From the NCBI GenBank assembly GCA_032718475.1, contig JAUCBJ010008260.1:14623-78622 (forward strand): a stretch of 64,000 nucleotides of DNA, read 5' to 3'. Every line of letters begins with the position of its first letter. Position 1 is the stretch's first letter. Source of the stretch: Nemertoderma westbladi (Eukaryota; Animalia; Xenacoelomorpha). Both the position numbers and the translations under genes were made by a program. Under the pieces are notes generated by a model. It searched no databases and was not told the origin of the DNA. It saw only the letters and a program-made list of their open reading frames with translations. Positions 5,673-53,400 of the stretch are shown here, one piece after another.

Positions 5673-5705
5673 CCGATCCTGTAGTAATTGTAAAACCATG
5701 ATACT

Positions 5706-19984: not shown

Positions 19985-20124
19985 TTCCAATGACAGAATG
20001 AGGGCGGACGGGAAAGTGTCGTTAGTTACGGTACGGTACCCTACAGAGTTCAGGAGTTCTAGTACTCAATTGTTACAATGTCTAATGATTGGTGCAATAT
20101 ATTAGATAAACGACAGAGCATTAA

Positions 20125-21480
20125 CACAATTTATATTGACTTCGCGAAAGCCTTCGATTCTGTTGTACATAAGAAATTACTTGCCAAACTATCTGCCTAT
20201 GGTATATCTGGAGATTTGCTACTACAGTACTATGGCTAACTGCATTTGTATCGGATTGTAGCCAACGTGTTGTGGTTGGGAATAGTTTTTCCGATGTATT
20301 TTATCTGGTACCCCTCAAGGTAGCGTGCTTGGTCCAATTTTGTTTGTCCTCTTTATAAATGGCCTACCGGATGTAATTAATGATATTGTATCTTGCAAAT
20401 TGTTTGCCGACGATGTTAAGCTGTACGCACGTTCCTCAGATCGACTTTTACTCGCGGAATCGTTATCAGCTTTGGAAAAGTGGGCTGATGTATGGCAACT
20501 TAAAATTGCAGGTCAGAAATGTAGCGTGCTTTGCATCGGTTCGGCAGATAGCAACGATACACAGTACATGTTAGGCGGTAAATATTTAAAAGTGGTTATC
20601 GTTCATATGCGTACCTCTGGCAAAAGAAGCAGGTTACAGTGGTGGTGTTTTCTAACCAAAACAATAAACTAATCTCCATTACTTAATTAACGGAAAGGAG
20701 CAGGTTACAGTGGTGCGCTTTTCTAACCAAAACAATAAACAATATCTCAATAACATAGGGTATTTCATACTTATAGTCTTATTTTTGCAATACGAAAATA
20801 CCAGAGGTACGCATATGAACTATAACTTTAAAAGTTGATACTTCCTGTAGAGACCTTGGCATTACAGTGTGCAGTACTCAAAATTTTGACGTTTATTGTC
20901 GCGAACAAGCTGCCAAAGCATTAAAAATGACAAATTTGATTTTTAAATGTTTCCAAACAAACAATCGTACTGCCTTAATTACTGCTTTTAAATCTTATGT
21001 ACGTCCACTTTTAAAATATTGTACGCCCATATGGTCTCCATTTCATTTAGGTAGTATAGACTTACTTGAGAGGGTCCAGAGATATTTTTCACGTCGCCTT
21101 TTTAAACGTTGTGATTTGGATTGTACAGTAAGCTATCTAGATCGAATTAAACTTTTACATCTTCAACCACTGGAAGTGCGCCGTATTATTTTTGACCTAA
21201 AGATGACTTTCGCTATTTTTAACAATGAAGTCGACCTAAACTTCTCTGACTTTTTTGCCCTAGCTCCCAGGAGGAAATGGTCGTAAGAGGAAATGGTCGT
21301 AAACTGTTTCATCATCAATCTCGCCTTCAAATTTGCAAAAATATTTTCTCCCACAGAGTGGTGCCCATTTCGCTTCCAGCTGAAGTTGTAACTTCAACTA
21401 AGAAATCATTATTTTCGCGCAAGATTAAAGAAATTGACCTTCTTTCTTTTTGTAATTTTAATCGCAATATGATAGAGTGA
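20125..21480 (+). mobile_element. Degraded CR1/Jockey-group LINE RT, interrupted by an insertion
   Basis: IYIDFAKAFDSV, PQGSVLGPILF.LFIN.LP, LFADDVKLY, RDLG, FKSYVRPLL.YCTPIWSP, LERVQR.F, F..RVV; several frameshifts. Confidence 0.9.
20586..20831. mobile_element. MITE-like insertion with ~27-bp terminal inverted repeats and TTAA flanks, inside the CR1-like LINE
   Basis: GTTATCGTTCATATGCGTACCTCTGG ... CCAGAGGTACGCATATGAACTATAAC, with TTAA on both sides; LINE homology resumes afterwards. TTAA target duplication is typical of piggyBac/Kolobok. Confidence 0.75.
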
Positions 21481-24310: not shown

Positions 24311-26395
24311 CGGGTTGATTTGACGGTAATGGTTTTTGATTATCAAAATTACGTCCTACTTGTATTTTTCGTGCCGCACATTGGGGAAAAATAAGATTTA
24401 AGAAAATACGGTAGTAAGCTTGTGGTGACAAATACTTGGCAAACAAATTGGAATGTTAATTATAGTTTATCGCAGGTAGGAGATATTTGAAAAATAAATA
24501 AATGGCAATATTTTAGGCATCTTTATTTAGTCAATGAAGTAAAAAACTGATAAAGAAATTACAAAAACAAAACTCACAATCCCCAATACCAGAAGAAATT
24601 ACGAATATTATCCACACCTGTGTGAGAAATTCTAACAATTGGTTTTAATTATTTTTATGATTAATTATTAAAAGTTAATTAGAAACAGAATAAAGCACAA
24701 TAGAGCTATATACCGGCACAACTCGATAACTTCGAATTAGAAAATGGCCAATATTGTTGCACAAAAAGTTGGATTTACTGAATGATCAATAATTAATATG
24801 TAGAATAATAACTATTTATTACATTTAAAATAAATAAAGAATTATTTCCCGCAGACACCGATGTATAATGTACCGAGGGAGCGAGGTCATATCAATGGAA
24901 GAAATGAAATAAAGCCATTTATTTTTCATATAATACAATACGTAATTTGTAGTCTTAAAATTGCCTTTCTTCCTATATCCCTGATAACTTTATACATATA
25001 ACGGTACCAGAACTCATTAGGTACAGGTACCGTTACTAACTACACCTGTACTACTGTGCTGCAATGTACCGGTATTATTAACACCGGTTGTTAACCAAGT
25101 GCTGATTGTTATCTGCAGTATAAACTGCAAGGTTACTGACCACTGAATACAGAATACTTGCTGCATAGCGCTGCGGTCACTTTATCTACAATTTTACTCA
25201 ATACCTTACTTTTTATCTACTTTATCTCCAGGACTATAAAGTAAGAGTAATTAACCTGTATTTCTATTGGGCTCTTTGTCTCCCACTGGAAGTTATTCAG
25301 CAATTTTAAATTCAGAAACTTCACCTAAAAAGCGACAAGGTCAGGATAGGAAAGCAATTTTAAGAATCAATTGAATGCTGATGACAGAAAAAGCAAAAAA
25401 CATTGACATTGCGAACTGCCAATTCTATAATATTATAAGCCATTAAAAACATGAGCTGTGAATTAATTAATATTATTTAGAAAGAAGCAACAATAATTAC
25501 TATACGGCGGTCTCTTCTTGAGTGTAAGCAACTTTAAATTGGTACAATACCAGGTATTCGGATTAAAATAGGAATTAAAACAACAAATATCGTAAAGAAT
25601 TAGCTTCTTTTGATGTAAATATTGTTTAATCTTCTTTTAGAAAAAAAAATGAATATTGCACATTTAATAAATGGCACAATCTATGATTCATGTAAATAGA
25701 AATAGGTTGTGTGTGGCAGAGATAACTTTAATTTGTTTAAAAAAAAACATGTAATGATACGCAAAATTTCAATTCCGTTAAAACAATATTATTAAATCTC
25801 GCTTAAAAACACAACAATTAAATAAATATATAATTTTAAATGGGCAAATAAATATATAATAATAATAATATTCTATAAATATACTGTACAATAGCTGGGA
25901 TAATTGAATTGTTTAAAATATACATGATAAAGTAACTTATTTATACAGAAGTACTGTAAGTACGGACCGTAGGTATGTATTATTATATATTGTGAATTAT
26001 ATTTCTGTAATTTTATATTTTATGTGGCTGACTATTTATTTAGGATGAACAAAAAAAGATTTATTTACCTAATCTGTCATTGTGTTATATAAACTAATCG
26101 TTTTTTTTTATTCATTGTTACTGTCATTTAAACAAACAACCACGTTATAAAATATATAAAAGGCACAGATTTTAAAAATTGAAATTACTTAATATTTATC
26201 ATTATCAATAAAATAATATTAAATAAAATTAGTAAATAAAATTAAATATTATAAATCCTGAATTAATATTACGTTTCTAGAGTCTAAATGGCCTCTGATC
26301 GGGTTTTCTACAGTTTCGCCACTTTAGAAATGAATCCAATTCAACCTCATAACCGAACATAACGTAATTAGGTGTAAAATCGTATCAAACACACT

Positions 26396-26420
26396 ACCGG
26401 AAGTGCACCAACCGGAAGTG
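26396..26420 (+). promoter_or_regulatory. Tandem ETS/GABP-type sites (ACCGGAAGTG x2)
   Basis: Two perfect 10-mers at 26396 and 26411 in otherwise AT-rich DNA. Confidence 0.4.
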
Positions 26421-26486
26421 CTATATAACAATAGATAGGTAGATTTATTCGGCAGTGATTCATTCGATTTAATCCCAAGTTAGGCC

Positions 26487-29400
26487 TCAGGAATGTAACC
26501 AGTACGTCGGTACCCATTGGGGTTTGGTTTCTAGTTTTTGCACCGCCGATATCAGCTGTTTCAGACAGACATTGGTATCACTGTGTCTCAGTACTAAGTC
26601 GAACATGTGGCCGTACTTTTCTTCCAACTCGTTCGCCGTCGCTATTATATGTCTAATATTCTCATCCTGGAACACAAAATAAGTTAAATACTTTCTATAA
26701 ATATTTTCACATCCACAGATTGAGTAAATAAATATAATTATAATGTAAAGTTTAAAGACGAATTTGGGATGGGGATGGGACAACCCTTTTGTTTTATTTG
26801 TTTTAAGTTATTACTAACAAACTCAATTTACTTCAAAGTCTTATAATATAGCACTTTATATGATTACAGTGAGAGTTTTGAGCAAAGTGCTATAGCGACA
26901 ATTGTATGACATGATTACTGAAATCCTATCAAATGATCCATTAATATATTCATTAATGATACATATAACATAATATAATGAATAAAGAACGTGTTAGAAT
27001 GGATTATAACTTTATCAACTACAATTTTGTAGTTGGTAATTGTAAAAGTTTATGCGTCCTTCAATGCACATTTAAATTGCCTCCAAGCTCTGTCCCCTAC
27101 TCTGGCCGCGTTATCCATTGGAAAACTCATAAACCAATGTATTTTTCATTTTCTAAATTCTGAATTTCTTTGTCAATCGTGGATTCTACAAATGGCAACT
27201 GCTGATTGGTTGTTGATCAGCAACGAGTATAAGGGCCTGAGATAGTCACATTGCACAGTAGCAGGCTTCTGCTGTATTGTAATTTATGTAATTATTGTTT
27301 GTGGTATCCTAAATATATCAAGATATTTGGAGGCATACTAATATTGGATAACCTCGAATTGTTTGTTCTTCACAGTGAATTCTAGTCGATTGAGTTCAAA
27401 CCTTCTGTTTCAATGCATTGGTGTGGAGTGGATGTGCTATATACTGTAGGCCTATTATTTTGTAGCCCCAACTGGTAGAAATTCATATAAACGTTATTCC
27501 TGAACAAATTACCCAAAGTCAGCAGTTTGTGTCCAACAGTGTATTTGTATTGCAGCCAGAGTTTATATTCCATGTCCCTAAAGGACATGACCGCTGTGAT
27601 CTCTCTTAGCATAATGTTGCGATTGCCATAAGACAAACCTGTTTGATATCTTGAGCACGACACCCTGAACGGAGCTGTTAGTGCATTCCCTGTAAGCTCG
27701 TATTATTGTCAGGAATAATATTATTGCGAGAATTACTACTACTAGGTCGAGCGAACTCGGACAGTGGAAATGAGATCCTTCCAGGCTTCCCGATTCTCCA
27801 TAGTTGTCGCAATTTCGTTTCTCCCAAGTTCAGTATCCCTTTCAAGTTGATCTATATATGTTATGGCAGGTCGTCCACGACTACGCTTTCCATGAGTTGG
27901 TTGCCAGAGAAGTAGATCTGGTATTACCTCGTCTTTACTTCGCCAGCAGTGCCAACTGAATCTTAATCTGCGTTCACGGAGGGTGGTTGATACAGGTGGT
28001 ATTGTACCATAAAGCTCGGCGTTTGTCATGTGTTGTCTCCAGCTGATGTTTAGGGCTGCCTGTAGTCTTGTAGTCTTGTGTAGCAACCATCAATTCGTTG
28101 TTCAAGTGATTTAGTCAGTGTCCAGGTCTCACCCCCGTATAAAAATACACTTTCCACTGTGGCTCGAAAGAACTTAGTCTTCAGGTGCCTGGAGAGATCT
28201 GATTTCCAGATGGTATCCATTTTTGATAGAGCTACCCAAGCCTTTGCTTTCCTAACTTCTATGTCCTTTTTGCTACTCTCTATCCATGATCCAAGGTACT
28301 GGAAGTCATCGACCTTCCTTAGTTGATTATTATCAATGGTTGTCAAGTTTCCATCAACATTAAAGGTCATGAATTCGGTCTTGGTAGCATTTATATACAA
28401 TCCAACCTCCTTAGCAGCCCTCTCCACTTTATTTAGTAGAAGCTGTGCATCTGCTAGCGTATTAGAGAGCAGGGCGATGTCATCCGCAAAGTCGGTGTCT
28501 GTGACTGTAGTTGCCGGATATCTACTACTTCTGCGTTCTTGAAGTGTGAATTCCAGATCTTCACCCTTTGTGGCCGTCCTCATTGCGTAATCCAGCACAA
28601 TTACAAATAGTAATGGTGCTAATGTGTCACCTTGCAGTACGCCAGCCGGGATTGAGAAAAACTGCGCTTCTGTGTCACAATATAACAATCCAATGCCAGC
28701 AACAATTACTTCTGGTATTCCATAAGCTCTTAGGATTTCAAGCATTTTACCTCTATGGATGGAGTCGAATGCCTTCTTGAAGTCCACAAAAGTCATGACT
28801 GCGGGGACATTGTTTGACTTAATTCCTTCAATCAGTCTCCGTAGTGCAAGTATCTGAGCTATTGTTGATCTACTTGGTCGAAATCCGTTTTGGCTCTTAC
28901 GCAGTAGTTTCTCTATGTGAGGCCTAATCTATACCTATAAAAATCAAATTCTGTCTGTCTCTCTCTCTCTCTCTCTGTGTTCGAACTCCTCCAAAACGGG
29001 CAGAGGGATTGCGCTGGAACTTGGCATGTGTGTATAACATTAACCAGCGGTCGTCATAGGCCACTTTTCGAAAAGTTTAATTCACGTTCGGTACCGGTAC
29101 TGGGTACCGGTACGTCAGTAGGCCTATACCGTTACCAGTACGTCAGTAGGCCTATGCCGGTAGCGGGAAATACCGGGTAACATGCCTCGGGTATAGCCTG
29201 CTAGTATGATATAAACACTAAACATATATGTAGTACTGTACTGTGTGGCTAAGTTAATATGATATAAACATTAAACATACAGTACTGTGTAGATTAGACC
29301 TGGCTAGTCCTATATAAAATCATTTTATTGTATATTTTGGCAGCTACCACAAGCAGACAGATCCCACTTCGACTGAAATTAATCGACTGAAAACCCTGGG

Positions 29401-32400
29401 ACCTATTGTATAGACTACCTTTGGGTCATTCGCCGCGCGAGTTTGATTTATATTTTGAAAAAAACTGGTAAATTTTACTAAGAATTCCAATGTTACACAA
29501 ATTGTTTGTTAGTAAAATTGTGAACTTACCCCCATGGCTTCACCCGCTCGAGCTCGTAACAACTTCAACTCAGTGAAACTAGGGGGCGCTATGTAGACAA
29601 AGAAAGGCATCAAATCGGTCGACTTTAGTTTCTTCATCGACTGAAAAAATGAGTCGGAAATCAGATGAAATTAAATGTGAAAAACGTAAATTAGAATGAA
29701 ACGCGATGGTGAAAACTAATAGAGAAATATAATCATAACCTACATAATTAATTAAAAATAACAAAATTAAATAAATTATATAAATTTTAATTTGTAATAA
29801 AAATTAAAATTATTTAAATGAATTTAAATTTAATAATGATAGGCCGAAATATAAATATAATAAATGTGATCAAAACCAAATAATGTGCAAATGATTTATA
29901 TTATTTTTTATGCTTATTTTATGTTACAATAATAATTAGTGATGAATAATATGGCACAAGTTTATGATTATTTAAAAACAAAATAATATTATTGCAAATT
30001 ATTAAAAACATAATATATTTTTCCATGTACGTGTAGATTAATAATACGCATTATATTTTTACCTCTGGGTTTAGGATAATAAAGCTTTATACTGACCTCG
30101 GGCTCGGAGTTCAGGTAAATAAAGCTTTATATTGACCTCCGGGTTTAGATTAATAAAACTCTACTCCATAGCTCTATATTTACCTCTGTGATTATGTTAA
30201 ATAAAGCTCTATATTTACCTCTGGGTTTATGTAAATAAAGCTCTATATTTACCTCTGGGTTTATGTAAATAAAGCTCTATATTTACCTCTGTGATTATGT
30301 TAAAAAAAGCTCTATATTTACCTCTGGTTTTATGTAAATAAAGCTCTATATTTACCTCTGGGTTTATGTAAATAAAGCTCTATATTTACCTCTGGGTTTA
30401 TGTAAATAAAGCTCTATATTTACCTCTGGGTTTATGTAAATAAAGCTCTATATTTACCTCTGGGTTTATGTAAATAAAGCTCTATATTTACCTCTGGATA
30501 TATATAAATAAAGCTCTATATTTACCTCTGGATTTAGGTAAATAAAGCTCTATATTTACCTCTGGGTTTATGCAAATAAAGCTCTATATTTACCTCTGGG
30601 TTTATGTAAATAAAGCTTTATAATTACCTCTGGGTTTATGTAAATAAAGCTTTATATTTACCTCTGGGTTTAGGTAAATAAAGCTCTACATTTACCTCTG
30701 GGTTTAGGTAAATAAAGCTCTACATTTACCTCTGGGTTTATGTAAATAAAGCTTTATATTTACCTCTGGGTTTATGTAAATAAAGCTTTATATTTACCTC
30801 GGAGTTTAGGTAAATAAAGCTCTATATTTACCTCTGGATTTAGGTAAATAAAGCTCTATATTTACCTCTGGATTTAGGTAAATAAAGCTCTATATTTACC
30901 TCTGGATATATATAAATAAAGCTCTATATTTACCTCTGGATTTAGGTAAATAAAGCTCTACATTTACCTCTGGGTTTAGGTAAATAAAGCTCTACATTTA
31001 CCTCTGGGTTTATGTAAATAAAGCTTTATATTTACCTCTGGGTTTATGTAAATAAAGCTTTATATTTACCTCGGAGTTTAGGTAAATAAAGCTCTATATT
31101 TACCTCTGGATTTAGGTAAATAAAGCTCTATATTTACCTCTGGTTTTATGTAAATAAAGCTCTATATTTACCTCTGGGTTTATGTAAATAAAGCTCTATA
31201 TTTACCTCTGGGTTTATGTAAATAAAGCTCTATATTTACCTCTGGATTTAGGTAAATAAAGCTCTACATTTACCTCTGGGTTTATGTAAATAAAGCTCTA
31301 TAATTACCTCTGGGTTTAGGTAAATAAAGCTCTACATTTACCTCTGGGTTTATGTAAATAAAGCTCTATATTTACCTCTGGATTTAGGTAAATAAAGCTC
31401 TATATTTACCTCTGGGTTTAGGTAAATAAAGCTCTATATTTACCTCTGGGTTTATGTAAATAAAGCTCTATATTTACCTCTGGGTTTATATAAATAAAGC
31501 TCTATATTTACCTCTGGATTTAGGTAAATAAAGCTCTATATTTACCTCTGGGTTTAGGTAAATAAAGCTCTACATTTACCTCTGGGTTTATGTAAATAAA
31601 GCTCTATATTTACCTCTGGATTTAGGTAAATAAAGCTCTACATTTACCTCTGGGTTTATGTAAATAAAGCTCTATATTTACCTCTGACCTCTGGGTTTAT
31701 GTAAATAAAGCTCTATATTTACCTCTGGGTTTAGGTAAATAAAGCTCTATATTTACCTCTGGGTTTATGTAAATAAAGCTCTATATTTACCTCTGGGTTT
31801 ATGTAAATAAAGCTCTATATTTACCTCTGGGTTTATGTAAATAAAGCTCTACATTTACCTCTGGGTTTATGTAAAAAAAAGCTCTATATTTACCTCTGGG
31901 TTTATATAAATAAAGCTCTATATTTACCTCTGGGTTTATGTAAATAAAGCTCTATATTTACCTCTGGGTTTATGTAAATAAAGCTCTATATTTACCTCTG
32001 GGTTTATGTAAATAAAGCTCTATATTTACCTCTGGGTTTAGGTAAATAAAGCTCTATATTTACCTCTGGGTTTATGTAAATAAAGCTCTATATTTACCTC
32101 TGGGTTTATGTAAATAAAGCTCTATATTTACCTCTGGGTTTATGTAAATAAAGCTCTATATTTACCTCTGGGTTTAGGTAAATAAAGCTCTATATTTACC
32201 TCTGGGTTTATGTAAATAAAGCTCTATATTTACCTCTGGGTTTATGTAAATAAAGCTCTATATTTACCTCTGGGTTTATGTAAATAAAGCTCTATATTTA
32301 CCTCTGGGTTTAGGTAAATAAAGCTCTACATTTACCTCTGGGTTTATGTAAATAAAGCTCTATATTTACCTCTGGGTTTAGGTAAATAAAGCTCTATATT

Positions 32401-35400
32401 TACCTCTGGGTTTATGTAAATAAAGCTCTATATTTACCTCTGGGTTTATATAAATAAAGCTCTATATTTACCTCTGGATTTAGGTAAATAAAGCTCTACA
32501 TTTACCTCTGGGTTTATGTAAATAAAGCTCTACATTTACCTCTGGGTTTATGTAAATAAAGCTCTATATTTACCTCTGGGTTTAGGTAAATAAAGCTCTA
32601 TATTTACCTCTGGGTTTATGTAAATAAAGCTCTATATTTACCTCTGGGTTTATGTAAATAAAGCTCTATATTTACCTCTGGATTTAGGTAAATAAAGCTC
32701 TATATTTACCTCTGGGTTTAGGTAAATAAAGCTCTATATTTACCTCTGGGTTTATGTAAATAAAGCTCTATATTTACCTCTGGGTTTATATAAATAAAGC
32801 TCTATATTTACCTCTGGATTTAGGTAAATAAAGCTCTATATTTACCTCTGGGTTTAGGTAAATAAAGCTCTATATTTACCTCTGGGTTTATGTAAATAAA
32901 GCTCTATATTTACCTCTGGGTTTATATAAGTAAAGCTCTATATTTACCTCTGGATTTAGGTAAATAAAGCTCTATATTTACCTCTGGGTTTATGTAAATA
33001 AAGCTCTATATTTACCTCTGGATTTAGGTAAATAAAGCTCTATATTTACCTCTGGGTTTAGGTAAATAAAGCTCTATATTTACCTCTGGGTTTATGTAAA
33101 TAAAGCTCTATATTTACCTCTGGGTTTATATAAATAAAGCTCTATATTTACCTCTGGGTTTATGTAAATAAAGCTCTATATTTACCTCTGGTTTTATGTA
33201 AATAAAGCTCTATATTTACCTCTGGGTTTATATAAATAAAGCTCTATATTTACCTCTGGATTTAGGTAAATAAAGCTCTATATTTACCTCTGGGTTTATG
33301 TAAATAAAGCTCTATATTTACCTCTGGGTTTAGGTAAATAAAGCTCTATATTTACCTCTGGGTTTATGTAAATAAAGCTCTATATTTACCTCTGGGTTTA
33401 TATAAATAAAGCTCTATATTTACCTCTGGGTTTATGTAAATAAAGCTCTATATTTACCTCTGGGTTTATGTAAATAAAGCTCTATATTTACCTCTGGGTT
33501 TATATAAATAAAGCTCTATATTGACCTCTGGGTTTATGTAAATAAAGCTCTATAATTACCTCTGGTTTTATGTAAATAAAGCTCTATATTTACCTCTGGG
33601 TTTATATAAATAACGCTCTATATTTACCTCTGGGTTTATGTAAATAAAGCTCTATATTTACCTCTGGGTTTATGTAAAAAAAAGCTCTATATTTACCTCT
33701 GGGTTTATATAAATAAAGCTCTATATTTACCTCTGGGTTTATGTAAATAAAGCTCTATATTTACCTCTGGGTTTATGTAAATAAAGCTCTAAATTTACCT
33801 CTGGGTTTATGTAAATAAAGCTCTATATTTACCTCTGGATTTAGGTAAATAAAGCTCTATATTTACCTCTGGGTTTATGTAAATAAAGCTCTATATTTAC
33901 CTCTGGGTTTATGTAAATAAAGCTTTATAATTACCTCTGGGTTTATGTAAATAAAGCTTTATATTTACCTCTGGGTTTAGGTAAATAAAGCTCTACATTT
34001 ACCTCTGGGTTTAGGTAAATAAAGCTCTACATTTACCTCTGGGTTTATGTAAATAAAGCTTTATATTTACCTCTGGGTTTATGTAAATAAAGCTTTATAT
34101 TTACCTCGGAGTTTAGGTAAATAAAGCTCTATATTTACCTCTGGATTTAGGTAAATAAAGCTCTATATTTACCTCTGGATTTAGGTAAATAAAGCTCTAT
34201 ATTTACCTCTGGATATATATAAATAAAGCTCTATATTTACCTCTGGATTTAGGTAAATAAAGCTCTACATTTACCTCTGGGTTTAGGTAAATAAAGCTCT
34301 ACATTTACCTCTGGGTTTATGTAAATAAAGCTTTATATTTACCTCTGGGTTTATGTAAATAAAGCTTTATATTTACCTCGGAGTTTAGGTAAATAAAGCT
34401 CTATATTTACCTCTGGATTTAGGTAAATAAAGCTCTATATTTACCTCTGGTTTTATGTAAATAAAGCTCTATATTTACCTCTGGGTTTATGTAAATAAAG
34501 CTCTATATTTACCTCTGGGTTTATGTAAATAAAGCTCTATATTTACCTCTGGATTTAGGTAAATAAAGCTCTACATTTACCTCTGGGTTTATGTAAATAA
34601 AGCTCTATAATTACCTCTGGGTTTAGGTAAATAAAGCTCTACATTTACCTCTGGGTTTATGTAAATAAAGCTCTATATTTACCTCTGGATTTAGGTAAAT
34701 AAAGCTCTATATTTACCTCTGGGTTTAGGTAAATAAAGCTCTATATTTACCTCTGGGTTTATGTAAATAAAGCTCTATATTTACCTCTGGGTTTATATAA
34801 ATAAAGCTCTATATTTACCTCTGGATTTAGGTAAATAAAGCTCTATATTTACCTCTGGGTTTAGGTAAATAAAGCTCTACATTTACCTCTGGGTTTATGT
34901 AAATAAAGCTCTATATTTACCTCTGGATTTAGGTAAATAAAGCTCTACATTTACCTCTGGGTTTATGTAAATAAAGCTCTATATTTACCTCTGGGTTTAT
35001 GTAAATAAAGCTCTATATTTACCTCTGGGTTTAGGTAAATAAAGCTCTATATTTACCTCTGGGTTTATGTAAATAAAGCTCTATATTTACCTCTGGGTTT
35101 ATGTAAATAAAGCTCTATATTTACCTCTGGGTTTATGTAAATAAAGCTCTACATTTACCTCTGGGTTTATGTAAAAAAAAGCTCTATATTTACCTCTGGG
35201 TTTATATAAATAAAGCTCTATATTTACCTCTGGGTTTATGTAAATAAAGCTCTATATTTACCTCTGGGTTTATGTAAATAAAGCTCTATATTTACCTCTG
35301 GGTTTATGTAAATAAAGCTCTATATTTACCTCTGGGTTTAGGTAAATAAAGCTCTATATTTACCTCTGGGTTTATGTAAATAAAGCTCTATATTTACCTC

Positions 35401-38400
35401 TGGGTTTATGTAAATAAAGCTCTATATTTACCTCTGGGTTTATGTAAATAAAGCTCTATATTTACCTCTGGGTTTAGGTAAATAAAGCTCTATATTTACC
35501 TCTGGGTTTATGTAAATAAAGCTCTATATTTACCTCTGGGTTTATGTAAATAAAGCTCTATATTTACCTCTGGGTTTATGTAAATAAAGCTCTATATTTA
35601 CCTCTGGGTTTAGGTAAATAAAGCTCTACATTTACCTCTGGGTTTATGTAAATAAAGCTCTATATTTACCTCTGGGTTTAGGTAAATAAAGCTCTATATT
35701 TACCTCTGGGTTTATGTAAATAAAGCTCTATATTTACCTCTGGGTTTATATAAATAAAGCTCTATATTTACCTCTGGATTTAGGTAAATAAAGCTCTACA
35801 TTTACCTCTGGGTTTATGTAAATAAAGCTCTACATTTACCTCTGGGTTTATGTAAATAAAGCTCTATATTTACCTCTGGGTTTAGGTAAATAAAGCTCTA
35901 TATTTACCTCTGGGTTTATGTAAATAAAGCTCTATATTTACCTCTGGGTTTATGTAAATAAAGCTCTATATTTACCTCTGGATTTAGGTAAATAAAGCTC
36001 TATATTTACCTCTGGGTTTAGGTAAATAAAGCTCTATATTTACCTCTGGGTTTATGTAAATAAAGCTCTATATTTACCTCTGGGTTTATATAAATAAAGC
36101 TCTATATTTACCTCTGGATTTAGGTAAATAAAGCTCTATATTTACCTCTGGGTTTAGGTAAATAAAGCTCTATATTTACCTCTGGGTTTATGTAAATAAA
36201 GCTCTATATTTACCTCTGGGTTTATATAAGTAAAGCTCTATATTTACCTCTGGATTTAGGTAAATAAAGCTCTATATTTACCTCTGGGTTTATGTAAATA
36301 AAGCTCTATATTTACCTCTGGATTTAGGTAAATAAAGCTCTATATTTACCTCTGGGTTTAGGTAAATAAAGCTCTATATTTACCTCTGGGTTTATGTAAA
36401 TAAAGCTCTATATTTACCTCTGGGTTTATATAAATAAAGCTCTATATTTACCTCTGGGTTTATGTAAATAAAGCTCTATATTTACCTCTGGTTTTATGTA
36501 AATAAAGCTCTATATTTACCTCTGGGTTTATATAAATAAAGCTCTATATTTACCTCTGGATTTAGGTAAATAAAGCTCTATATTTACCTCTGGGTTTATG
36601 TAAATAAAGCTCTATATTTACCTCTGGGTTTAGGTAAATAAAGCTCTATATTTACCTCTGGGTTTATGTAAATAAAGCTCTATATTTACCTCTGGGTTTA
36701 TATAAATAAAGCTCTATATTTACCTCTGGGTTTATGTAAATAAAGCTCTATATTTACCTCTGGGTTTATGTAAATAAAGCTCTATATTTACCTCTGGGTT
36801 TATATAAATAAAGCTCTATATTGACCTCTGGGTTTATGTAAATAAAGCTCTATAATTACCTCTGGTTTTATGTAAATAAAGCTCTATATTTACCTCTGGG
36901 TTTATATAAATAACGCTCTATATTTACCTCTGGGTTTATGTAAATAAAGCTCTATATTTACCTCTGGGTTTATGTAAAAAAAAGCTCTATATTTACCTCT
37001 GGGTTTATATAAATAAAGCTCTATATTTACCTCTGGGTTTATGTAAATAAAGCTCTATATTTACCTCTGGGTTTATGTAAATAAAGCTCTAAATTTACCT
37101 CTGGGTTTATGTAAATAAAGCTCTATATTTACCTCTGGGTTTATGTAAATAAAGCTCTATATTTACCTCTGGGTTTATGTAAATAAAGCTCTACATTTAC
37201 CTCTGGGTTTATGTAAAAAAAAGCTCTATATTTACCTCTGGGTTTATATAAATAAAGCTCTATATTTACCTCTGGGTTTATGTAAATAAAGCTCTATATT
37301 TACCTCTGGGTTTATGCAAATAAAGCTCTATATTTACCTCTGGGTTTATGTAAAAAAAGCTCTATATTTACCTCTGGGTTTATATAAATAAAGCTCTATA
37401 ATTACCTCTGGTTTTATGTAAATAAAGCTCTATATTTACCTCTGGGTTTATATAAATAACGCTCTATATTTACCTCTGGGTTTATGTAAATAAAGCTCTA
37501 TATTTACCTCTGGATTTAGGTAAATAAAGCTCTATATTTACCTCTGGTTTTATGTAAATAAAGCTCTATATTTACCTCTGGGTTTATGTAAATAAAGCTC
37601 TATATTTACCTCTGGGTTTATGTAAATAAAGCTCTATATTTACCTCTGGATTTAGGTAAATAAAGCTCTACATTTACCTCTGGGTTTATGTAAATAAAGC
37701 TCTATAATTACCTCTGGGTTTAGGTAAATAAAGCTCTACATTTACCTCTGGGTTTATGTAAATAAAGCTCTATATTTACCTCTGGATTTAGGTAAATAAA
37801 GCTCTATATTTACCTCTGGGTTTAGGTAAATAAAGCTCTATATTTACCTCTGGGTTTATGTAAATAAAGCTCTATATTTACCTCTGGGTTTATATAAATA
37901 AAGCTCTATATTTACCTCTGGATTTAGGTAAATAAAGCTCTATATTTACCTCTGGGTTTAGGTAAATAAAGCTCTACATTTACCTCTGGGTTTATGTAAA
38001 TAAAGCTCTATATTTACCTCTGGATTTAGGTAAATAAAGCTCTACATTTACCTCTGGGTTTATGTAAATAAAGCTCTATATTTACCTCTGGGTTTATGTA
38101 AATAAAGCTCTATATTTACCTCTGGGTTTAGGTAAATAAAGCTCTATATTTACCTCTGGGTTTATGTAAATAAAGCTCTATATTTACCTCTGGGTTTATG
38201 TAAATAAAGCTCTATATTTACCTCTGGGTTTATGTAAATAAAGCTCTACATTTACCTCTGGGTTTATGTAAATAAAGCTCTATATTTACCTCTGGGTTTA
38301 TGTAAATAAAGCTCTATATTTACCTCTGGGTTTATGTAAGCTCTATATTTACCTCTGGGTTTATGTAAATAAAGCTCTATATTTACCTCTGGGTTTATGT

Positions 38401-41400
38401 AAATAAAGCTTTATATTTACCTCTGGGTTTATGTAAATAAAGCTCTATATTTACCTCTGGGTTTATGTAAATAAAGCTCTATATTTACCTCTGGGTTTAT
38501 GTAAATAAAGCTCTATATTTTCCTCTGGGTTTATGTAAATAAAGCTCTATATTTACCTCTGGGTTTATGTAAATAAAGCTCTATATTTTCCTCTGGGTTT
38601 ATGTAAATAAAGCTCTATATTTACCTCTGGGTTTATGTAAATAAAACTTTATATTTACCTCTGGGTTTATGTAAATAAAGCTCTATATTTACCTCTGGGT
38701 TTATGTAAATAAAGCTTTATATTTACCTCTGGGTTTATGTAAATAAAGCTCTATATTTACCTCTGGGTTTATGTAAATAAAGCTCTATATTTTCCTCTGG
38801 GTTTATGTAAATAAAGCTCTATATTTACCTCTGGGTTTATGTAAATAAAGCTCTATATTTTCCTCTGGGTTTATGTAAATAAAGCTCTATATTTACCTCT
38901 GGGTTTATGTAAATAAAACTTTATATTTACCTCTGGGTTTATGTAAATAAAGCTCTATATTTACCTCTGGGTTTATGTAAATAAAGCTCTATATTTACCT
39001 CTGGGTTTATGTAAATAAAGCTCTATATTTACCTCTGGGTTTATGTAAATAAAGCTCTATATTTACCTCTGGGTTTATGTAAATAAAGCTCTATATTTAC
39101 CTCTGGGTTTAGATTAGTAACGGATGTTTTCCCGGAATGGATGATCCGTTTTATGGAATCGAACGTGGTCCCGTATAAATATTGTCCGAATTCTCCGTAT
39201 TCGACGTACTTTCCGTTCTCTATATTCTGTTCAAATTCTTGTCGAGTAACGAAGAAATAGTCTCGAGTGTGCTGCTCGGTTGGTCTGGGCGGGCGGGTTG
39301 TATCTGGACAAATAATTAATGAAAAGCGATGTATTAAATAAAATAAAAATTTGTTATTATTATATACTTTTGTTTTTATTTGGTACTTTATTATAGACTC
39401 ACGGGGCACATCCGGTCTGTATTTTCCAGAGTCATCTTCAGAAATCCGTTGTCGGAGTTCGTGTCTGCCGACATTAGAAGCTCCGACCAAAAATATTGGA
39501 CGTTTAGTCATCGGATCCTGTAAGACAAATAATAATAAAAGCATATTTTATATTTTATCAATATATCGATGCACGTAATTGGCATACTCAGATATTATAT
39601 TCTGTAATCTGTACAATGTTACCGTCAATACGAAATGTTTAAACCACTCACGCTCCATAATATTTACTTAGTAAAACTCACAGGGTTATAAAGTTCCACC
39701 TCTTCATAACATTCGAATTCTTCAGGTTCTGCAACGTCTCTGTGTTTATTTTTCTTACTCCTTGTAAATTTCATGATACTTTTTCCTTTCTTTTTTCCAC
39801 TGGTCTTCAAATATTGTCGCTTCAGCATTTCCCTCCTGACGAGTAAATGCGGCCACATTTTAGTATAAAGGCAAAAAGATTAGGTCTCGTGAGAAAATCT
39901 ATTTCCATACGGTACCTCAATAATGAAAAAAAATGTTACATTAGCAAGTCCTTAACAAACGAGTAGTATTATGGCTGAATATTTAGGTATGTGTCTAGAT
40001 TTAGGTATGGGTGATTCTCATTTATTCATCTGTCTAAGTACACAGTGAGAGATTTATCTGAATAAAACAAACAAACATTTGTACATTTTATGTATATCTG
40101 CTAATATTTATCAAACTCTACTGTATATGTGTGCGCTACACATGTACATTATGATTACTGTACACCATACCAAATCTCATAGATAAAGTTATCCAACAAA
40201 AACGTACCGTCATTCCTTGCACAAAAGCAAATCATTTCTAAAAAAAATAATATTTAAGGTACTGATTACAGCTTTGTGCTTAGTTCTCGTCTGTACACAT
40301 CTCTGATGTCAATCTTAAATAAATCCAGTATCACTTCAGTGATGGTAAACAATACTAAACCTAATGAATTATCTCTCGACACTCACGCTGTCTGTAAACT
40401 CCTACTGGGTACCAATCCCGCCAGGTATTGTTGGTTCTCCCCGTCTCGGTAGGCTTGCCACCAGTTCGTATCGTCCTGACTCATTACATGGAGTACGTCG
40501 CCCCGGGCGAACCCCAATCCCAACTCGCGACACGGCAGTTGTTTGTCTGTCTCGGGATCAAAGTTATACAAAGCTTTCACGTGAACCTGAAAAAAAATCA
40601 GGGAGTTAATGGAAACTCCAAATCGACGAATAAATATATCGTCAAAATTGACAATTAAGGAAAGGAGCTGGTACAGTGACACTTTATTCTAACCAAAACA
40701 ATAAACGAAAGTCAATAGAACATTTTATTTTTTGGGAGTAATCAGCAATTATTTGGGTCGATTTTCATATGGAAAGACCCCCCCCCCCCCCCCCCCCCCT
40801 ATCATCAATAGTTCAATCAAAAGCCAACAATTATCACTTCTTCATTAATTAATGGATTTTCTGCATAAGATTGTATACATTCAAAAGCAGATCACGTGAT
40901 TAAGTGAGCATCACAATAAAAAAGTAGTACTTCTTACTTACTTACTTACATAAATTGATGCTTTAATATTGTTGATAGTCTTTATCCTTTTAACAGTTTA
41001 CTAAATTTTCGGTGAAAATAAACCTGCCCGGATCACAATTCTTATTAAAATTGTTAAGTTCGTGTTAAGCACTCGTATCAACTGCAATGCAAGTACTTAA
41101 TCAAACTTGATAAGTTTAAAACCGATTGTTTTTCAGTCTAGCAAGCATTTGTCAAGTACTTATTAATAATGGCCAGTCATTGTAACTTTTTTTTTATGTA
41201 TATCAAGCATTTATTGTTAAGCACTTATTAAGTATGGCAAAGTTCTATATAATTCATTAAACCATTTATAGCGATTACTTACCAAGCTCTGTTCCCTAGG
41301 GAACGCAGGGTTGGCGTTCTTGCAGGGTTTCAGATGGAAGGTTAACGCGCCCAACATGTCCTCCATAACATCGCAAATGGCGTCGACGGACCAGCCAGTG

Positions 41401-47400: not shown

Positions 47401-50400
47401 CAGTTTGTGTAAATCTCTGGGATGGGATGGTTGACAAGTCACTTACAACAGGTTTACTCTTCACTGATTTCAAATTTCCCTCTATAATGTCAATCCGCAA
47501 AGAAGTGCAGACTTGTTATAGTGATTAGGCGATTATAGCGTCTATATGACTTCTAATATGCCTTAATACGACGCCATGTGAGTACTAGACCATAGAGAAC
47601 AAATCTTTGTAAATCGAATGTTGATAAAGTTTAAACATTATATTAATATAAACAATGGTTACGGCGGCGAATCCATAATAATTTCTACGTAATCCAAACC
47701 ATGGAAGTTCTAACGACACGATAAGAGAACAACCGGCTGATTAACCATTCTAGTCACGAACCCGGTGAGAGCGTCCACTCGGGATTAATTAGAGCGGGAT
47801 GGGTTGTATAAGTAAACGCCCCGGTGCAATCATTAAATAATCGGAGAGACTAGAGGAAATGTTCCGTGTAGGGAAGATTTATTGATTAGCGAATCCGGGG
47901 TTATAATTGGTTGAACAATATTGAGCTACGGAACTGCTCCCCAAGTCTAGTAGATCGCCACTCCAGTAACAAAACCATTATAGTTGATGTTGCACTTTTC
48001 TTTACTCTACTTGCATTTTGTAGTGATTTAGGTATTGTCAATGATTATTAATCGTGAAATAAAAACGAACAAATAAAGTAATAAAAATTCTGACAATTAG
48101 GTATAAAAAAGTACATAATAAGTTATTTAAACGGACAGGAAAAGTTATTCTGGTAGGTATTTAATCACTTTATCACTACGACTACCCTTATCCCAACCTA
48201 CGACTACCCTTATCCCAACCTACGAACTACCCTTATCCCAACCTACGAACTACCCTTATCCCAACCTACGAACTACCCTTATCCCAACCTACGACTACCC
48301 TTATCCCAACCTACGACTACCCTTATCCCAACCTACGACTACCCTTATCCCAACCTACGAACTACCCTTATCCCAACCTACGAACTACCCTTATCCCAAC
48401 CTACGAACTACCCTTATCCCAACCTACGAACTACCCTTATCTCGACCTACGAACTACCCTTATCCCAACCTAAGACTACCCTTATCCAAACCCAACCTAC
48501 GACTACCCTTATCCCAACCTACGACTACCCTTATCCCAACCTACGACTACCCTTATCCCAACCTACGACTACCCTTATCCCAACCCAACCCACGACTACC
48601 CTTATCCCAAACTGCGAAATACCCTTATCCCGACCTACGAACTACCCTTATCCCGACCTATAACTCTGTATCCTATGATGATAGACTTACATTGGCAATC
48701 ATTTTCACAATCTGCTCGTGATTGGCTGTTTCCAGGGAACGAGCGTTAACAGCAACCAATTCGTCGGTAACTTGGACACCAGCGCGTTGTCCCGGACCAC
48801 CTAAAAGAATTAACATTTGGTTGAAACCTGAGCACTACGACTACACCTTTAAATAGCAAATGCTGGTGGAAAATTATGAGGTTCAACTCGACACTCTTGT
48901 ATATCAGGCACATTGTCGTACTACTGTATATATGCGGCTTTTAATTGCAATAACAAAAAAATAATGTATTATTTCAGCAATCTGCTTTCCTATCATTTTT
49001 ATATCTCTTATTTTTGATGACTATAAATAAGGCGCTTTCAGGTATGATACACCAACAATGCAGTCTCTGAGCTGCCACAAATACAACATAAAAATGATAA
49101 TATTAAAGAATTAAAAAAACGTTGAACTATCTTTTTGAGAGCAGCTGAACACGGGGTATCTAAATGCTTTTCTGAATAATGTGGAAAATGGTATTAAAGA
49201 TAAGAGGCAATCAATTTTAGAGAACTATAGAATAATATGATCTGACTATGTGATACATAATATCAGGAACCTGGGGCAAAATTTTAATTATTAACTTGGG
49301 ATCTAATATTTTTAACACTTTTCCTTATTATGATGACTTCATCTATTTTTCTATCTGTATATAGGAAGGAGTATCTAACCAATTCTTATAATAATAATAA
49401 TAATAATAAATGGATTTACAGCTCCACGGTCGAGCCGGGCGCTGAAGGGTGTGAACCCTAAATGCGGCTTTAATTATCACTAATTAAATAATGCAGTTGT
49501 TGTCAGTACCATGTACTATTGTTTTTAAACTTAATACTATATTATCATTGTGATTTGATTTCTTCAGTAAACCTTTACATAATTTTTACCCGATCGCTCC
49601 CATAAGATATCGTTAATAAAATACGGAAACAAGAATTAAACACGACGCGAATCGCTTGGGTTAAATCTGAGAGTTCAATAAATATATACAAGCAGATGGT
49701 CAATAAGCCGCACGCAACCTTCCGCGCTAATCCCAGATCCTGGAGTCCCCCGTGTCAGCGCCGTAATCACGGGATCTGTAACCCCAGCCCAACTCCGCTC
49801 GGTACAACGCAATATTTCTCACTAACGCGGTGAAAAATCGATACAACTAGAATGCAAAATTATTTAATTCACAAAACGATTGAGCGGCAAATTGTTTCGC
49901 TTCAAACGTACGAAATTATTGATAAAATTTGTGTTTGAATGACCGATTAATTGTGTTTTGCAGCAGAGTTTTTGCTTTAGTTAGACCAAGAATTGTTGGC
50001 GTCGGATTCATTGTATCAAGTACAGTGAACTTAACAGAACCTATACAGCATTGGAGGTAGGTCATTATTCCTCACTGCTTGTCAGTTGAACGGAGTCGCC
50101 TCCGCTTTACAGGACATTGCTTTTTTCGTGAGGACCATCAGCCAGTGCTTTGGAGGCCTCATTGAGACTACCTCACTACATTCCATTCACTCACTTCAGC
50201 GGCTCTTAAAGGACACTCGCTTTGAAGATCCGGATAATCTCGCGAAATTTATTGGTGAAAGGGTGTGGTGCGGTGCAATTTTGTTGATAATATGACATTA
50301 TCAATGCAGCTGCAATGCAGCATGCCTATTATAAATATTGACGGAAAAAGTGTGAAACTTAGGTTAAACTTTAACCGAGGTTTACGATGCTTCCTGAATA

Positions 50401-53400
50401 TTTCGAACTTTGGGCCAGACGGGCAGACGCCAGGCAGACAATGCCTATTTGGCCCGACCTAAATTAAGTGTTAGTTAGGTCTCACAGACGCGCGTTTACT
50501 CATATGAATATCATTCGATCGAATCGAGTCGATGAGAAAATTGTTTAATTATACGCGCGCATTGTATTCAAGCAACGCTTTGTCTTGTTTTTCATAGAAC
50601 TTACTTCATTCATGTTGGTTGAGGCGAAATAACTATTTACGTACTAATTTGTAAAGAAGCACTTTACAGTGTAATGATTTGTAATGGTTTGTTACACGAA
50701 AGAAAGTAGCGAATGGTGCAAATAAAGAGGTTCATATTCACTAACAAAATTAGTTTGCAGAAAGAATATATGTAATGCGAAGTTTATTCCAGAATTCTTA
50801 CGTGAAATTGCGAAGTAACTTTTTCTATAGAAATAGTGTCCATATTTTGGAATATACGTACATCTACCACACGACTCTAGGGTGTTCCCGCACAGCGACA
50901 TATCCACAGTTCGCGATCATCCATATCACTCGTGATTTTCAAGACCGCTGTCTTTCAGTAGACGATTCAGGGATTTCAATGTCTGTCGGCCACCACATTT
51001 CCTCTCGCCGGACGACTGTTATAGAACTAGATTATGCAGAGACTGGTCAGCTCTACGATGGTAGTGACCGGAAAGTCTCACTGGAAATGCCTGCAGGGTG
51101 TTGCTGGGCTTCGGCAATTCTTGATAACTTCCGAGATTTTACAATGCCTTGTTTGTTAGGCATTGTATTTTTGCCACGAACCCTGGGCAGCATTGCGGTG
51201 TATGTATAGATACCATCATCAAGTAATCTGGTTTAAGAGCCCAACAGTGGCTGTCATATAGCAGAACAGGCTCTCTACTGTTGTCCGAAATCAATTACAG
51301 TCAGAGAGTGTGTGATTCCAGGGGATTTACATCCCTTTAATGGCTTATGTAAAGCAGAGTGTATTAAGATGCCTCGTTCTTTAGTATTCGTACGTCTTCA
51401 GCGGATCTCCGAATCCAACACCCTATAGAATAGGTAGCCTAAATCATCTACATGACCAACCGGACCATCCAACAGCTGAACACACGATGCTCAATGACCT
51501 CCTGATGGGGGGAATCCAAGATTACTGTGACGATTTGGGACTTTGTAGCATTTATAAATAGACCAAAATTAGATGATGGTTTGTTAACATAAATTTAGAG
51601 AAAGGAACACGTGACAGTGACAGTCTATGTTAACCAAAACAATAAACGAAAGTGAATAGCACATGTGAAAGACTTCAGTTTAATTTTTACTTTTAATCAG
51701 CTGTTTTTTTGCGTGTGGAGACTGCTTATCTATCTGCAAATGACATGACAAACATTACCTGTCTCACTCTTAGATTATCAAAAATTTCTTAACAAAAATA
51801 AAGTAATAAGTTTATTTAATTATCCTCAAGGAATCGATTTAGGGCCCCTGAATTCCACAATTCGGTCTACCGCTGTACCGTTTGCTATGTTTTTGAAGAT
51901 CTTTCTAGCAAGCTACAATGATGATACTCAAAGTTCACAATCGCCCGCGATTCCAAAATGTACATACAGTCAATAAAATCTAATTATTTCAAAGGAAGTT
52001 TTTAAAATAAAACAAACACACTATACACAACACACAATACAATAGGAATAAGATAAAACACTAGTCATTAGTACTGATCTCGGAGGTCAGACCCACCCAG
52101 ACCCGCATTATCCACAAACCAAAGAGACCTCTATGGTCTCTGGCTGCCCTTAAACGGAGGTCCAGTCGACATGTCGTTAAATGTACCGGTAGAGTATGCA
52201 GATAGTCAGTAAAATGAAAGTAAGTGGATGTTGGCCTGTACGAGTACGTTCAAGGTGGACCGGCAACGGGCCTAACTCATAGTCAGCTATGGACCCTACT
52301 GCTATCTCACCCGCCGTAAAACAATCCTCACCCGCCGTATAAATTTCTATAATTAGTCCATCATTTCCTACGTAGTTTCGTAATATTTCCATTTTCGAAT
52401 AAAAGTTATATATTGAAAACCAAACAAGATTAAAGGATCATTTGCACTGGAGGGTCTTGGGTGATGCGGCCTGACACAATTATAGCCATCGCTACTACAA
52501 TGCGAGTACAGTACGTTAAACATCTGTCTGTCCATTAAAAGAAACGCAGTGAAGTAAAGGGAATAAGTAATAACCTAAAATATAAGGCGATATACTGTGA
52601 TGTTCATTGTTTATGCACCGCGTATGTTAGAGTTACGAGAGGCCAAGGAGAATAATTATCGATGAGTTTACAAGATGCGCCAATATTCCACTCACTTATT
52701 GCGCGATGGCATACAAGTAATTACCCAATCAAGGAATCCAAATGTTCGCGAGTGGAGAGGGTTTAATCGATAAGCCGCGAAACATTCTACGCATCAGCTA
52801 AAATAATAGGGAGCAACACGTAACTAAAGGCCGCTTGGGAATGTATTGAGCGGCGGAGAATGTGTCAGCTGCGTTGGGACAGATGATGGGAATGTGGATA
52901 CATTGTGGCGCAGTTGGGCCGCAATGGGAGGGGGAAGGGGGTGGGGAATACAGTGGAAAAACTCAAGTACATAGGAATTAAAAAGGAATAAATAATTACT
53001 CAATAACGGTGCTTTACTAAACATTGAAACAATTGAGTCATACACAGCGGTTACTGTATGCAGCTAAATAATAACAACTTCAAGGCAAAAAGCGCAATAT
53101 GGAATATCGACCTGCACAGTAAAGCCCGGCCACAGATACACTTCGCTGTGAGAGTGCGGTGACAGCGCTGTGAGAGTGAGGTGACAGCTCTGTGAGAGTG
53201 AGGTGACGGCTCTGTGAGAGTGAGGTGACAGCGCTGTGAGAGTGAGGTGAAGGCGCTGTGAGAGTGAGGTGACGGCTCTGTGAGAGTGCGGTGACGGCTC
53301 TGTGAGAATGCGATGACAGCGCTGTAACTTTGCTGATAGCAAAAATACTAACAATTATTTACACAATAAATAACTTCCTAACGTCATAATGAATAATTAT

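What the first reader, a model, noticed from the sequence alone, without database searches (positions are those of the whole stretch)
30058..39111. A 9-kb intron built from ~265 tandem copies of its own splice donor; each unit is a GT...AG module
Seen: on the sense (minus) strand exon 14 ends ...AATCTAAACCCAGAG|GTAAAT. The repeat unit is GTAAATATAGAGCTTTATTTACATAAACCCAGAG, i.e. the first ~23 intron nt plus the last ~11 exon nt. The real donor (CAGAG|GTAAAT) is therefore followed by hundreds of near-identical donors. Only the first is productive: donor 2 adds 34 nt (frameshift), and donors 3 onward include an in-frame TAA ([19 protein letters not shown]). Each unit starts GT and ends AG, so removing any whole number of units regenerates the same junction. 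Established: AG|GT junctions define recursive ('ratchet') splice sites and underlie the tandem-duplication model of intron gain. Inference: the array is tolerated either because it is removed recursively or because a strict first-donor rule ignores the decoys. It could also feed NMD. The pyrimidine tract before each AG is weak, so acceptor function is unproven.
Basis: partly seen in the sequence, partly recalled or inferred. Interest (0 to 1): 0.88.

Follow-up and report, generated by a model that had tools for sequence, protein, structure and literature searches.

The report
Splice donor copied 260 times
A 34-base piece spanning the end of an exon and its splice signal is repeated about 266 times in the next intron of a cell-polarity gene, yet the one assembled transcript uses only the first signal, so it is likely a very large, passive example of a repeat type already known from human and lancelet genes.

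Summary
The array is real: 266 units (255 of 34 nt) fill 9.04 kb of a 9,460-nt intron in a PALS1/MPP5-like gene; 262 of 266 downstream junctions keep GT. A spliced contig from another sample joins 39101 exactly to 29640, so donor 1 is used. Both array ends occur in two DNA samples; its length is unconfirmed (a 3.26-kb block is duplicated without a substitution). The unit is 13 intron nt plus 21 exon-derived nt, not 23+11. Recursive splicing is not supported: the unit's AG is GAG with another AG directly before it and scores like background, while 15 of 15 acceptors of the gene are YAG. The class is known (human F7, CBS, 6-16, LMNB2, PDGF; lancelet 'mirages'), and F7 minigenes show a first-donor rule. 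This scan found the same kind before on other DNA (18 notes, at least 11 genomes). One extra: two substitutions gave most units a perfect reverse complement of their own donor, but predicted masking is no stronger than at working donors. New, unusually long member of a known kind; interest 0.27.

The parts
39101..39303 (-). Third-from-last exon of a PALS1/MPP5-like MAGUK gene (guanylate-kinase domain); its last 21 nt are the template of the unit's 3' part
   Evidence: Pfam Guanylate_kin E 3.9e-18; best PDB match MAGUK p55 subfamily member 5, E 4.8e-15; covered exactly, 0 differences, by spliced contig of X4
39095..39103 (-). Authentic donor (donor 1), GAG|GTAAAT; first intron base 39100
   Evidence: X4 contig match ends at 39101 and continues at 29640
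30063..39100 (-). Minisatellite of 266 units (consensus 34 nt = 13 intron nt + 21 exon-derived nt); 262 downstream GT junctions
   Evidence: both ends also present in DNA runs X1 and X2
39079..39085 (-). Reverse complement of donor positions +1..+7 inside unit 1 (unit positions 16-22), repeated in most units; 9 bp where position 23 is C
   Evidence: stem of 7 bp or more behind 202 of 266 downstream junctions; folds
33881..37138 (-). First copy of a 3.26-kb higher-order block (95 units)
   Evidence: exact runs of 2,152 nt at offset 3,300 and 1,113 nt at offset 3,307; 63 of 63 and 32 of 32 units identical
30574..33838 (-). Second copy of the block, identical except one 7-nt insertion near 31685
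30035..30218 (-). Degenerate tail units 263-266 and a remnant; unit 264 and the remnant keep the exon-like letters, likely the oldest copies
   Evidence: identical in X1 and X2 up to 30199
29641..30062 (-). Unique AT-rich remainder of the intron (422 nt) with the canonical CAG acceptor at 29641
29530..29640 (-). Penultimate exon (111 nt)
   Evidence: X4 contig positions 305-418; weak Pfam Guanylate_kin match
26362..26666 (-). Last coding exon with stop and start of 3' UTR
   Evidence: X4 contig positions 1-304; 786-aa open frame from 44352 to the stop

Best explanation
The array is a splice-donor minisatellite that likely arose by tandem duplication of the exon's last 21 and the intron's first 13 bases and then likely grew passively, and the assembled transcript is spliced at the first donor only. 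Shown: anatomy, exon origin of the unit's 3' part, donor-1 junction in one contig, non-acceptor character of the unit's AG. Inferred: the intron was about 0.4-0.5 kb before the expansion; growth went by slippage and unequal exchange at several scales (8-unit, 91-unit and 97-unit blocks); the whole intron is removed in one step; the most upstream donor wins because it is the first met after the exon is defined (first-donor rule as in F7), with stop codons behind donor 2 as a backstop. The in-unit hairpin likely arose at the DNA level by a templated (quasi-palindrome) mutation and may have favoured expansion; it is probably not needed for donor choice.
For: Junction: X4 contig (3,710 nt, depth 61.9) maps 26362-26665 to positions 1-304, 29529-29642 to 305-418 and 39101-39303 to 417-619; the 2-nt overlap is the shared AG, so no unit is retained. 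X4 has no contig on 39040-39100 (bin depth 18 = 61.9 x 25/86, my arithmetic) nor on 30118-30250. Origin: 16 of 21 and 18 of 21 matches to the exon end. Donors are interchangeable in sequence: U1 duplex -6.9 kcal/mol for donor 1 and for 249 of 266 others, so position must decide. Precedent: sequential inactivation in F7 minigenes activates only the next most upstream site (PMC1557585 section 6); lancelet mirages do not disturb splicing (PMC3087553 passages). No sign of selection on the signals: GT is intact at donors 2-7; the 4 GA units (8, 10, 16, 18) are one change copied in an 8-unit block. The window holds 7 arrays of period 20 or more and 8 or more copies, so one starting on a donor is not remarkable (about 5% per such window, my arithmetic with 14 donors).
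Against: X4 comes from another sample (S3, with its own SNP at 39515), and nothing shows that this animal carries the array. Contigs drop rare forms, so leak to donor 2 or 3, as reported for CBS and 6-16, is not excluded. The first-donor rule was shown in mammalian cells with 5-9 copies, not 260 in an invertebrate. The two substitutions that perfect the donor hairpin are the only 1 of 1,539 double changes that do so, which selection could also explain.
Confidence: 0.75

Rival explanations
1. Self-masking array: each unit carries an anti-donor arm, so every decoy donor would be born next to a complementary strand (upstream and downstream) while donor 1 lacks the upstream arm; this would silence the decoys and allow the expansion.
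For: Perfect stems of 7-9 bp lie behind 202 of 266 and in front of 183 of 266 downstream junctions; donor 1 has 7 bp behind but 4 bp in front; 13 control donors of the gene reach at most 4 bp behind and 5 bp in front. Shuffled units reach 7 bp in 1.2%. With 20 nt transcribed past the site, opening costs 2.9 kcal/mol for donor 1 against a median 5.0 for 262 array donors; 9 of 262 are as open.
Against: The gap vanishes with 12 nt downstream (192 of 262 as open as donor 1) and is 0.4 kcal/mol with 60 nt (5.5 vs 5.9); 13 working donors have medians 5.3-5.4. The stronger 9-bp form is absent from the first 25 units, where masking would matter most (0 of 25). F7 needs no structure. 3 of 7 other arrays in the window also fold at z of -2.7 or lower. 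The tests were chosen after seeing the hairpin.
Confidence: 0.13
2. Recursive (ratchet) removal: units would be excised in steps, each AG|GT serving as acceptor and then donor.
For: All 266 units end in AG and 262 start with GT, so whole-unit removal would restore the junction. The intron is 9.5 kb, the longest in the gene. The final mRNA cannot tell one-step from stepwise removal (PMC6110457 passage).
Against: Unit-end AG is GAG with AG-free length 0 and background score. The neighbouring CAG, 2 nt upstream, is the better acceptor (YAG, AG-free 18 nt, median -6.7, matched by 41% of background AGs) but its use would leave 2 nt and break the frame. Recursive sites are juxtaposed full 3' and 5' motifs. 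The matrix rests on only 15 sites and 2 of 15 real acceptors score -6.7 or lower when left out, so the test is weak.
Confidence: 0.05
3. Regulatory leak: a share of transcripts would use donors 2+ and be destroyed or give a GK-truncated protein, so array length would tune PALS1 dose.
For: Only donor 1 is productive. CBS and 6-16 use their next two pseudo-sites. Latent donors behind stop codons are activated by heat shock (PMC3510495, start of abstract in listing). The donor-2 stop is 49 nt before the last junction, just under the 50-55-nt rule (recalled), so it might escape decay.
Against: No alternative contig in X4. Copies beyond the first few should not matter under a first-donor rule. No data link length to expression.
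Confidence: 0.07
4. The length is partly an assembly artefact: one 3.3-kb block would be laid twice and the true array would have about 168 units (not exclusive of the best explanation).
For: 3,265 nt duplicated with no substitution and one 7-nt insertion.
Against: A third partial copy (22 units at offset 91) and an 8-unit block show real block duplication at several scales. The two DNA samples differ little in unique flanks (1 difference in 1,623 nt, 0 in 823 nt), so a young duplication without substitutions is plausible. Both ends are in two samples, so the array as such is not an artefact.
Confidence: 0.2

Closest known systems
Human F7 intron 7 37-bp VNTR (Borensztajn et al. 2006, PMC1557585; read: abstract, introduction, results section 6, discussion)
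   Same: First unit spans the exon-intron boundary; identical donors follow in the intron; only the most upstream is used; unit size similar (37 vs 34).
   Different: F7 has 5-9 copies and 4 exon nt per unit; here about 266 copies and 21 exon-derived nt. No specific structure was found in F7; here each unit pairs with its own donor. Function of the pseudo-sites was tested in F7, not here.
Human CBS intron 13, 6-16 intron 2, LAMIN B2 and PDGF intron 4 minisatellites (as summarised in the introduction of PMC1557585; primary papers not read)
   Same: Donor reiterated by a boundary-spanning minisatellite.
   Different: 10-25 copies. CBS and 6-16 also use two pseudo-sites; LAMIN B2 and PDGF use the authentic one only, as the contig here suggests.
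Lancelet 'mirages' (Adh3, globins BflGb6/9; PMC3087553, 6 passages read; the original Adh3 paper not read)
   Same: Minisatellite-like duplications of exon-intron boundaries in an invertebrate; regular splicing undisturbed; homogenised interior with divergent boundary units, as in the tail here; length instability.
   Different: 3-6 units of 150-160 bp in the globins (Adh3 units 10-72 bp); some span acceptors. Here one donor, hundreds of copies.
Recursive splice sites of Drosophila (PMC6110457, 12 of 40 passages read)
   Same: AG|GT junctions inside a long intron; final mRNA identical to one-step removal.
   Different: True sites have a full 3' splice-site motif before AG and a few sites per intron; here the AG is GAG without an AG-free stretch and is a by-product of copying a donor.
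Quasi-palindrome (template-switch) mutation (PMC3820800, abstract only)
   Same: [quoted passage not shown]
   Different: Shown in yeast reporters; here only inferred from two substitutions.

Membership tests
Donor-spanning minisatellite (F7 type / mirage) | First unit spans an exon-intron boundary | tested here: met
   Unit = exon's last 21 nt (16 of 21 identical; 11 of last 11) + first 13 intron nt
Donor-spanning minisatellite (F7 type / mirage) | Donor sequence reiterated in the intron | tested here: met
   248 of 266 downstream junctions have the donor-1 9-mer
Donor-spanning minisatellite (F7 type / mirage) | Authentic, most upstream donor is the main one used | tested here: met
   One spliced contig of X4, 39101 to 29640; other sample, contigs only
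Donor-spanning minisatellite (F7 type / mirage) | Copy number varies between alleles | tested here: inconclusive
   Array ends in X1 and X2; summed depth on them is 12-13 times higher in X2 while other repeats differ 1.25-2.5-fold, but the tool states depth is no copy number
Donor-spanning minisatellite (F7 type / mirage) | Pseudo-sites work when the first is inactivated | not testable with these tools
   needs minigenes
Recursive splice site | 3' splice-site motif (YAG, pyrimidine tract, AG-free stretch) directly before the GT | tested here: not met
   GAG, AG-free 0, score at background; 15 of 15 real acceptors YAG
Recursive splice site | Intermediates, sawtooth coverage or lariats | not testable with these tools
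   only contigs were available; none of X4 lies on the two array ends laid
Intron gain by tandem duplication of AG|GT | Acceptor is the AG of the last duplicate and the next exon continues the unit (definition recalled; idea cited) | tested here: not met
   Acceptor is 422 nt beyond the array in unique sequence; next exon starts with unrelated letters
MPP5/PALS1/Stardust-like MAGUK (host gene) | PDZ-SH3-GK order with MPP5 as best match | tested here: met
   PDZ, SH3, GK exons in order; best PDB match MPP5 at 58 bits, CASK 47; orthology by tree not tested

The most novel reading that the evidence does not exclude
A self-silencing donor array: two templated substitutions gave each unit a perfect anti-donor arm, so every decoy donor is hidden as it leaves the polymerase while the real donor, lacking an upstream arm, stays open; this is what let the array reach hundreds of copies and swell the intron twentyfold.
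Probability: 0.12. Interest if true: 0.6.

Novelty: new member of a known kind. Interest (0 to 1): 0.27.

Why it matters
If the length holds, it is about ten times longer than the published human cases I read about (5-25 copies) and longer than those listed in the 8 earlier scan notes shown (up to about 155). It would show that the first-donor rule holds against some 260 identical competitors in an invertebrate, and offers a natural substrate for asking whether position alone or local pairing picks the donor. It does not reveal a new splicing pathway.

Tried and rejected
No whole genome is held, so I could not count such arrays genome-wide. No RNA holder was listed; X4 is inferred to be RNA because its contig skips six introns. 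X6 laid 0 contigs; X5 gave only low-depth pieces on the last two exons. Array length from contig depth: X1 1,607 and 836 against X2 19,602 and 11,181 on the two array ends, single-copy about 14-31; not interpretable as copy number, left as a hint. Homolog search with the 67-aa exon found 1 unnamed protein among 14 candidates; not used. Purifying selection on GT/AG: 21 distinct substitutions over 34 positions, none at the final AG but also none at several other positions; too few to test. Enrichment of dead (GA) donors near the exon: 4 of the first 18, rejected as one event copied. Folding z-score of -5.3 for two units was not taken as evidence, since shuffles destroy periodicity. In one search two control donors were off by one base and the gene model had frame errors; one search repeats them corrected and only one search is cited for controls. 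Exons upstream of 44352 remain uncertain (frame break). Literature: no hit for the CBS primary paper; 'minisatellite, hairpin, donor splice site, pseudo-sites, exon-intron' (4 of 5 terms) gave only the F7 paper, without 'hairpin', so I found no report of a hairpin-bearing donor array in that one search; subscription journals are not covered. PMC10078293 (8 passages) added nothing. Scan look-ups for this genome and for look-alike stretches were empty. No supplements were read.
Full report
Observation. Tandem Repeats Finder reports a 34-bp array at 30170-39111, 262.7 copies, 95% matches. Read on the minus strand and cut at the junction motif, it has 266 units from 39100 to 30063 and a remnant; 255 of 266 are 34 nt and 105 of 266 equal the consensus. 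Of the 266 junctions behind the real donor, 262 keep GT, 248 have the same 9-mer and 155 the same context from -11 to +13. The unit is found nowhere else in the window.

Host gene. The flanking exons encode a guanylate-kinase domain preceded by SH3 and PDZ exons; the best solved match is MAGUK p55 subfamily member 5. The corrected model gives a 786-aa open frame from 44352 to the stop. The other 12 introns of that model measure 99-2,863 nt; this one 9,460 nt, of which 422 nt are unique. The array has thus likely swollen an ordinary intron about twentyfold (inference). The exon is third from last; the number 14 is not verified.

Which donor is used. No run was on record as RNA, but run X4 holds a 3,710-nt contig that skips the introns of this gene. 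It maps to 39101-39303 at positions 417-619 and to 29529-29642 at 305-418 and 26362-26665 at 1-304. Length, depth (61.9) and positions agree, so I take it as one contig. The 2-nt overlap is the AG shared by exon end and acceptor. The junction is exactly 39101 to 29640. X4 shows no contig on 39040-39100 or 30118-30250. Limits: one contig, from a different sample whose array status is unknown, and contigs drop rare forms.

Is the array real. DNA runs X1 (possibly the source) and X2 (another sample) both carry the exon end running into unit 1 and the unique intron running into the degenerate tail (823 nt, 0 differences in X2), with high depth on both ends. The array is not invented by the assembly. 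Its length is open: units 59-121 equal 156-218 (63 of 63) and 122-153 equal 220-251 (32 of 32), a 3.26-kb block duplicated with one 7-nt insertion and no substitution. Without one copy 168 units remain. A third partial copy and an 8-unit block point to real unequal exchange, and the two samples differ at 1 of 1,623 nt in the flank, so a young duplication is plausible; I give the artefact reading 20%.

Origin. The unit's last 21 nt match the exon's last 21 nt at 16 positions, tail unit 264 at 18. The seed was therefore 21 exon nt plus 13 intron nt, not 11 plus 23. Divergent boundary units with a homogenised interior are also described for lancelet mirages. With 7 sizeable minisatellites in this 64-kb window and 14 modelled donors, a seed on a donor has roughly a 5% chance per window (my arithmetic), so no special cause is needed.

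Recursion. 'Starts GT, ends AG' follows from copying any AG|GT donor. What recursion needs is a working acceptor before the GT. All 15 acceptors of my gene model (6 of them within 2 nt of contig boundaries of X4, the rest predicted) are CAG (10) or TAG (5) with 18-73 AG-free nt in front. The unit-end AG is GAG with another AG touching it; its matrix score (median -7.7, n 266) equals that of 1,033 background AGs (-7.8). The CAG two bases earlier is somewhat better (median -6.7, n 260) but would leave two bases and break the frame. The matrix is small and 2 of 15 real sites score as low when left out, so this lowers rather than excludes recursion. The intron-gain model fails too: the acceptor lies outside the array.

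Reading frames. Only donor 2 is reached without a stop; it shifts the frame, and its stop ends 49 nt before the last junction; from donor 3 on the stop is 119 nt or more upstream. By the recalled 50-55-nt rule, donor 3+ products would be decay targets and donor 2 products borderline.

Unit positions 16-22 are the reverse complement of donor positions +1..+7; where position 23 is C (76 units) the stem can reach 9 bp. Stems of 7 bp or more stand behind 202 of 266 junctions; 13 other donors of the gene reach at most 4 bp. The arm is derived: from the tail-unit template exactly two changes (positions 20 and 22) give it, the only 1 of 1,539 possible double changes that does; from the present exon, random changes do so in 0.3% or fewer of trials. 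These tests are post hoc. A templated quasi-palindrome mutation (PMC3820800 abstract) explains such a pair in one step without selection, and 3 of 7 other arrays here also fold well. For splicing, donor 1 alone lacks an upstream arm, and with 20 nt transcribed it is about 2 kcal/mol easier to open than the median decoy; but the gap is absent at 12 nt, 0.4 kcal/mol at 60 nt, and the decoys are no harder to open than working donors (medians 5.9 and 5.4). The 9-bp form is missing from the first 25 units. Masking is possible but weakly supported.

Comparison with what is known. Earlier scan notes (18 notes, at least 11 genomes, 8 shown) pointed me to the F7 paper, which I read in part. It describes this layout in F7, CBS, 6-16, LAMIN B2 and PDGF and shows that the pseudo-sites are functional but only the most upstream is chosen, without a structural or stop-codon explanation. 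Lancelet mirages are the invertebrate case. The locus meets the three testable features of this class and fails the testable feature of recursive sites.

Verdict. A real, unusually long new member of a known kind. Most likely a passive minisatellite tolerated by a first-donor rule (0.75). The size and the built-in anti-donor arm give it modest value as a test substrate. Interest 0.27.

Noticed in passing
window 48176-48660: A 23-bp array (21 copies) starts 30 nt behind another donor of the same gene (48690); it does not copy that donor but holds many GT sites with predicted U1 pairing (-5.8 to -6.5 kcal/mol) within the range of the gene's real donors.
   Followed up: partly
window 27734-28900: High-copy element in the gene's last intron (summed contig depth above 400,000 in DNA runs); the minus strand reads like a truncated non-LTR retrotransposon with a reverse-transcriptase motif (label recalled, not searched).
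   Followed up: no
window 9980-13135, 19157-20065, 4647-5669: Long uninterrupted frames: a 1,052-aa WD40/coiled-coil stretch, a [2Fe-2S] thioredoxin-like gene and a HEXIM gene. Intron-poor genes sit beside an intron-rich MAGUK gene.
   Followed up: partly
window 5703-6755, 53144-53325, 53631-54144, 59070-59709, 1763-2006: Five more minisatellites (periods 20-63), so the genome appears rich in them; the 20-bp and 22-bp arrays fold at z -2.7 and -3.0.
   Followed up: partly
window 30035-30055: The remnant behind the last unit reads, in the exon's frame, I-I-N-L-H, closer to the hydrophobic pattern of MPP5 at this place than the present exon's V-T-N-L-N; it may keep an older state of the exon end.
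   Followed up: no
window 39040-39125 and 30118-30250: Summed contig depth on the array ends is 12-13 times higher in X2 than in X1, other repeats only 1.25-2.5 times; possibly a longer allele in sample S2 or a library effect.
   Followed up: partly
window 40672-40722: A 50-nt piece of a very high-copy small element in an intron (depth above 100,000); similar letters recur near 20640-20720, 51590-51660, 55270-55300 and 60220-60290 by eye.
   Followed up: no
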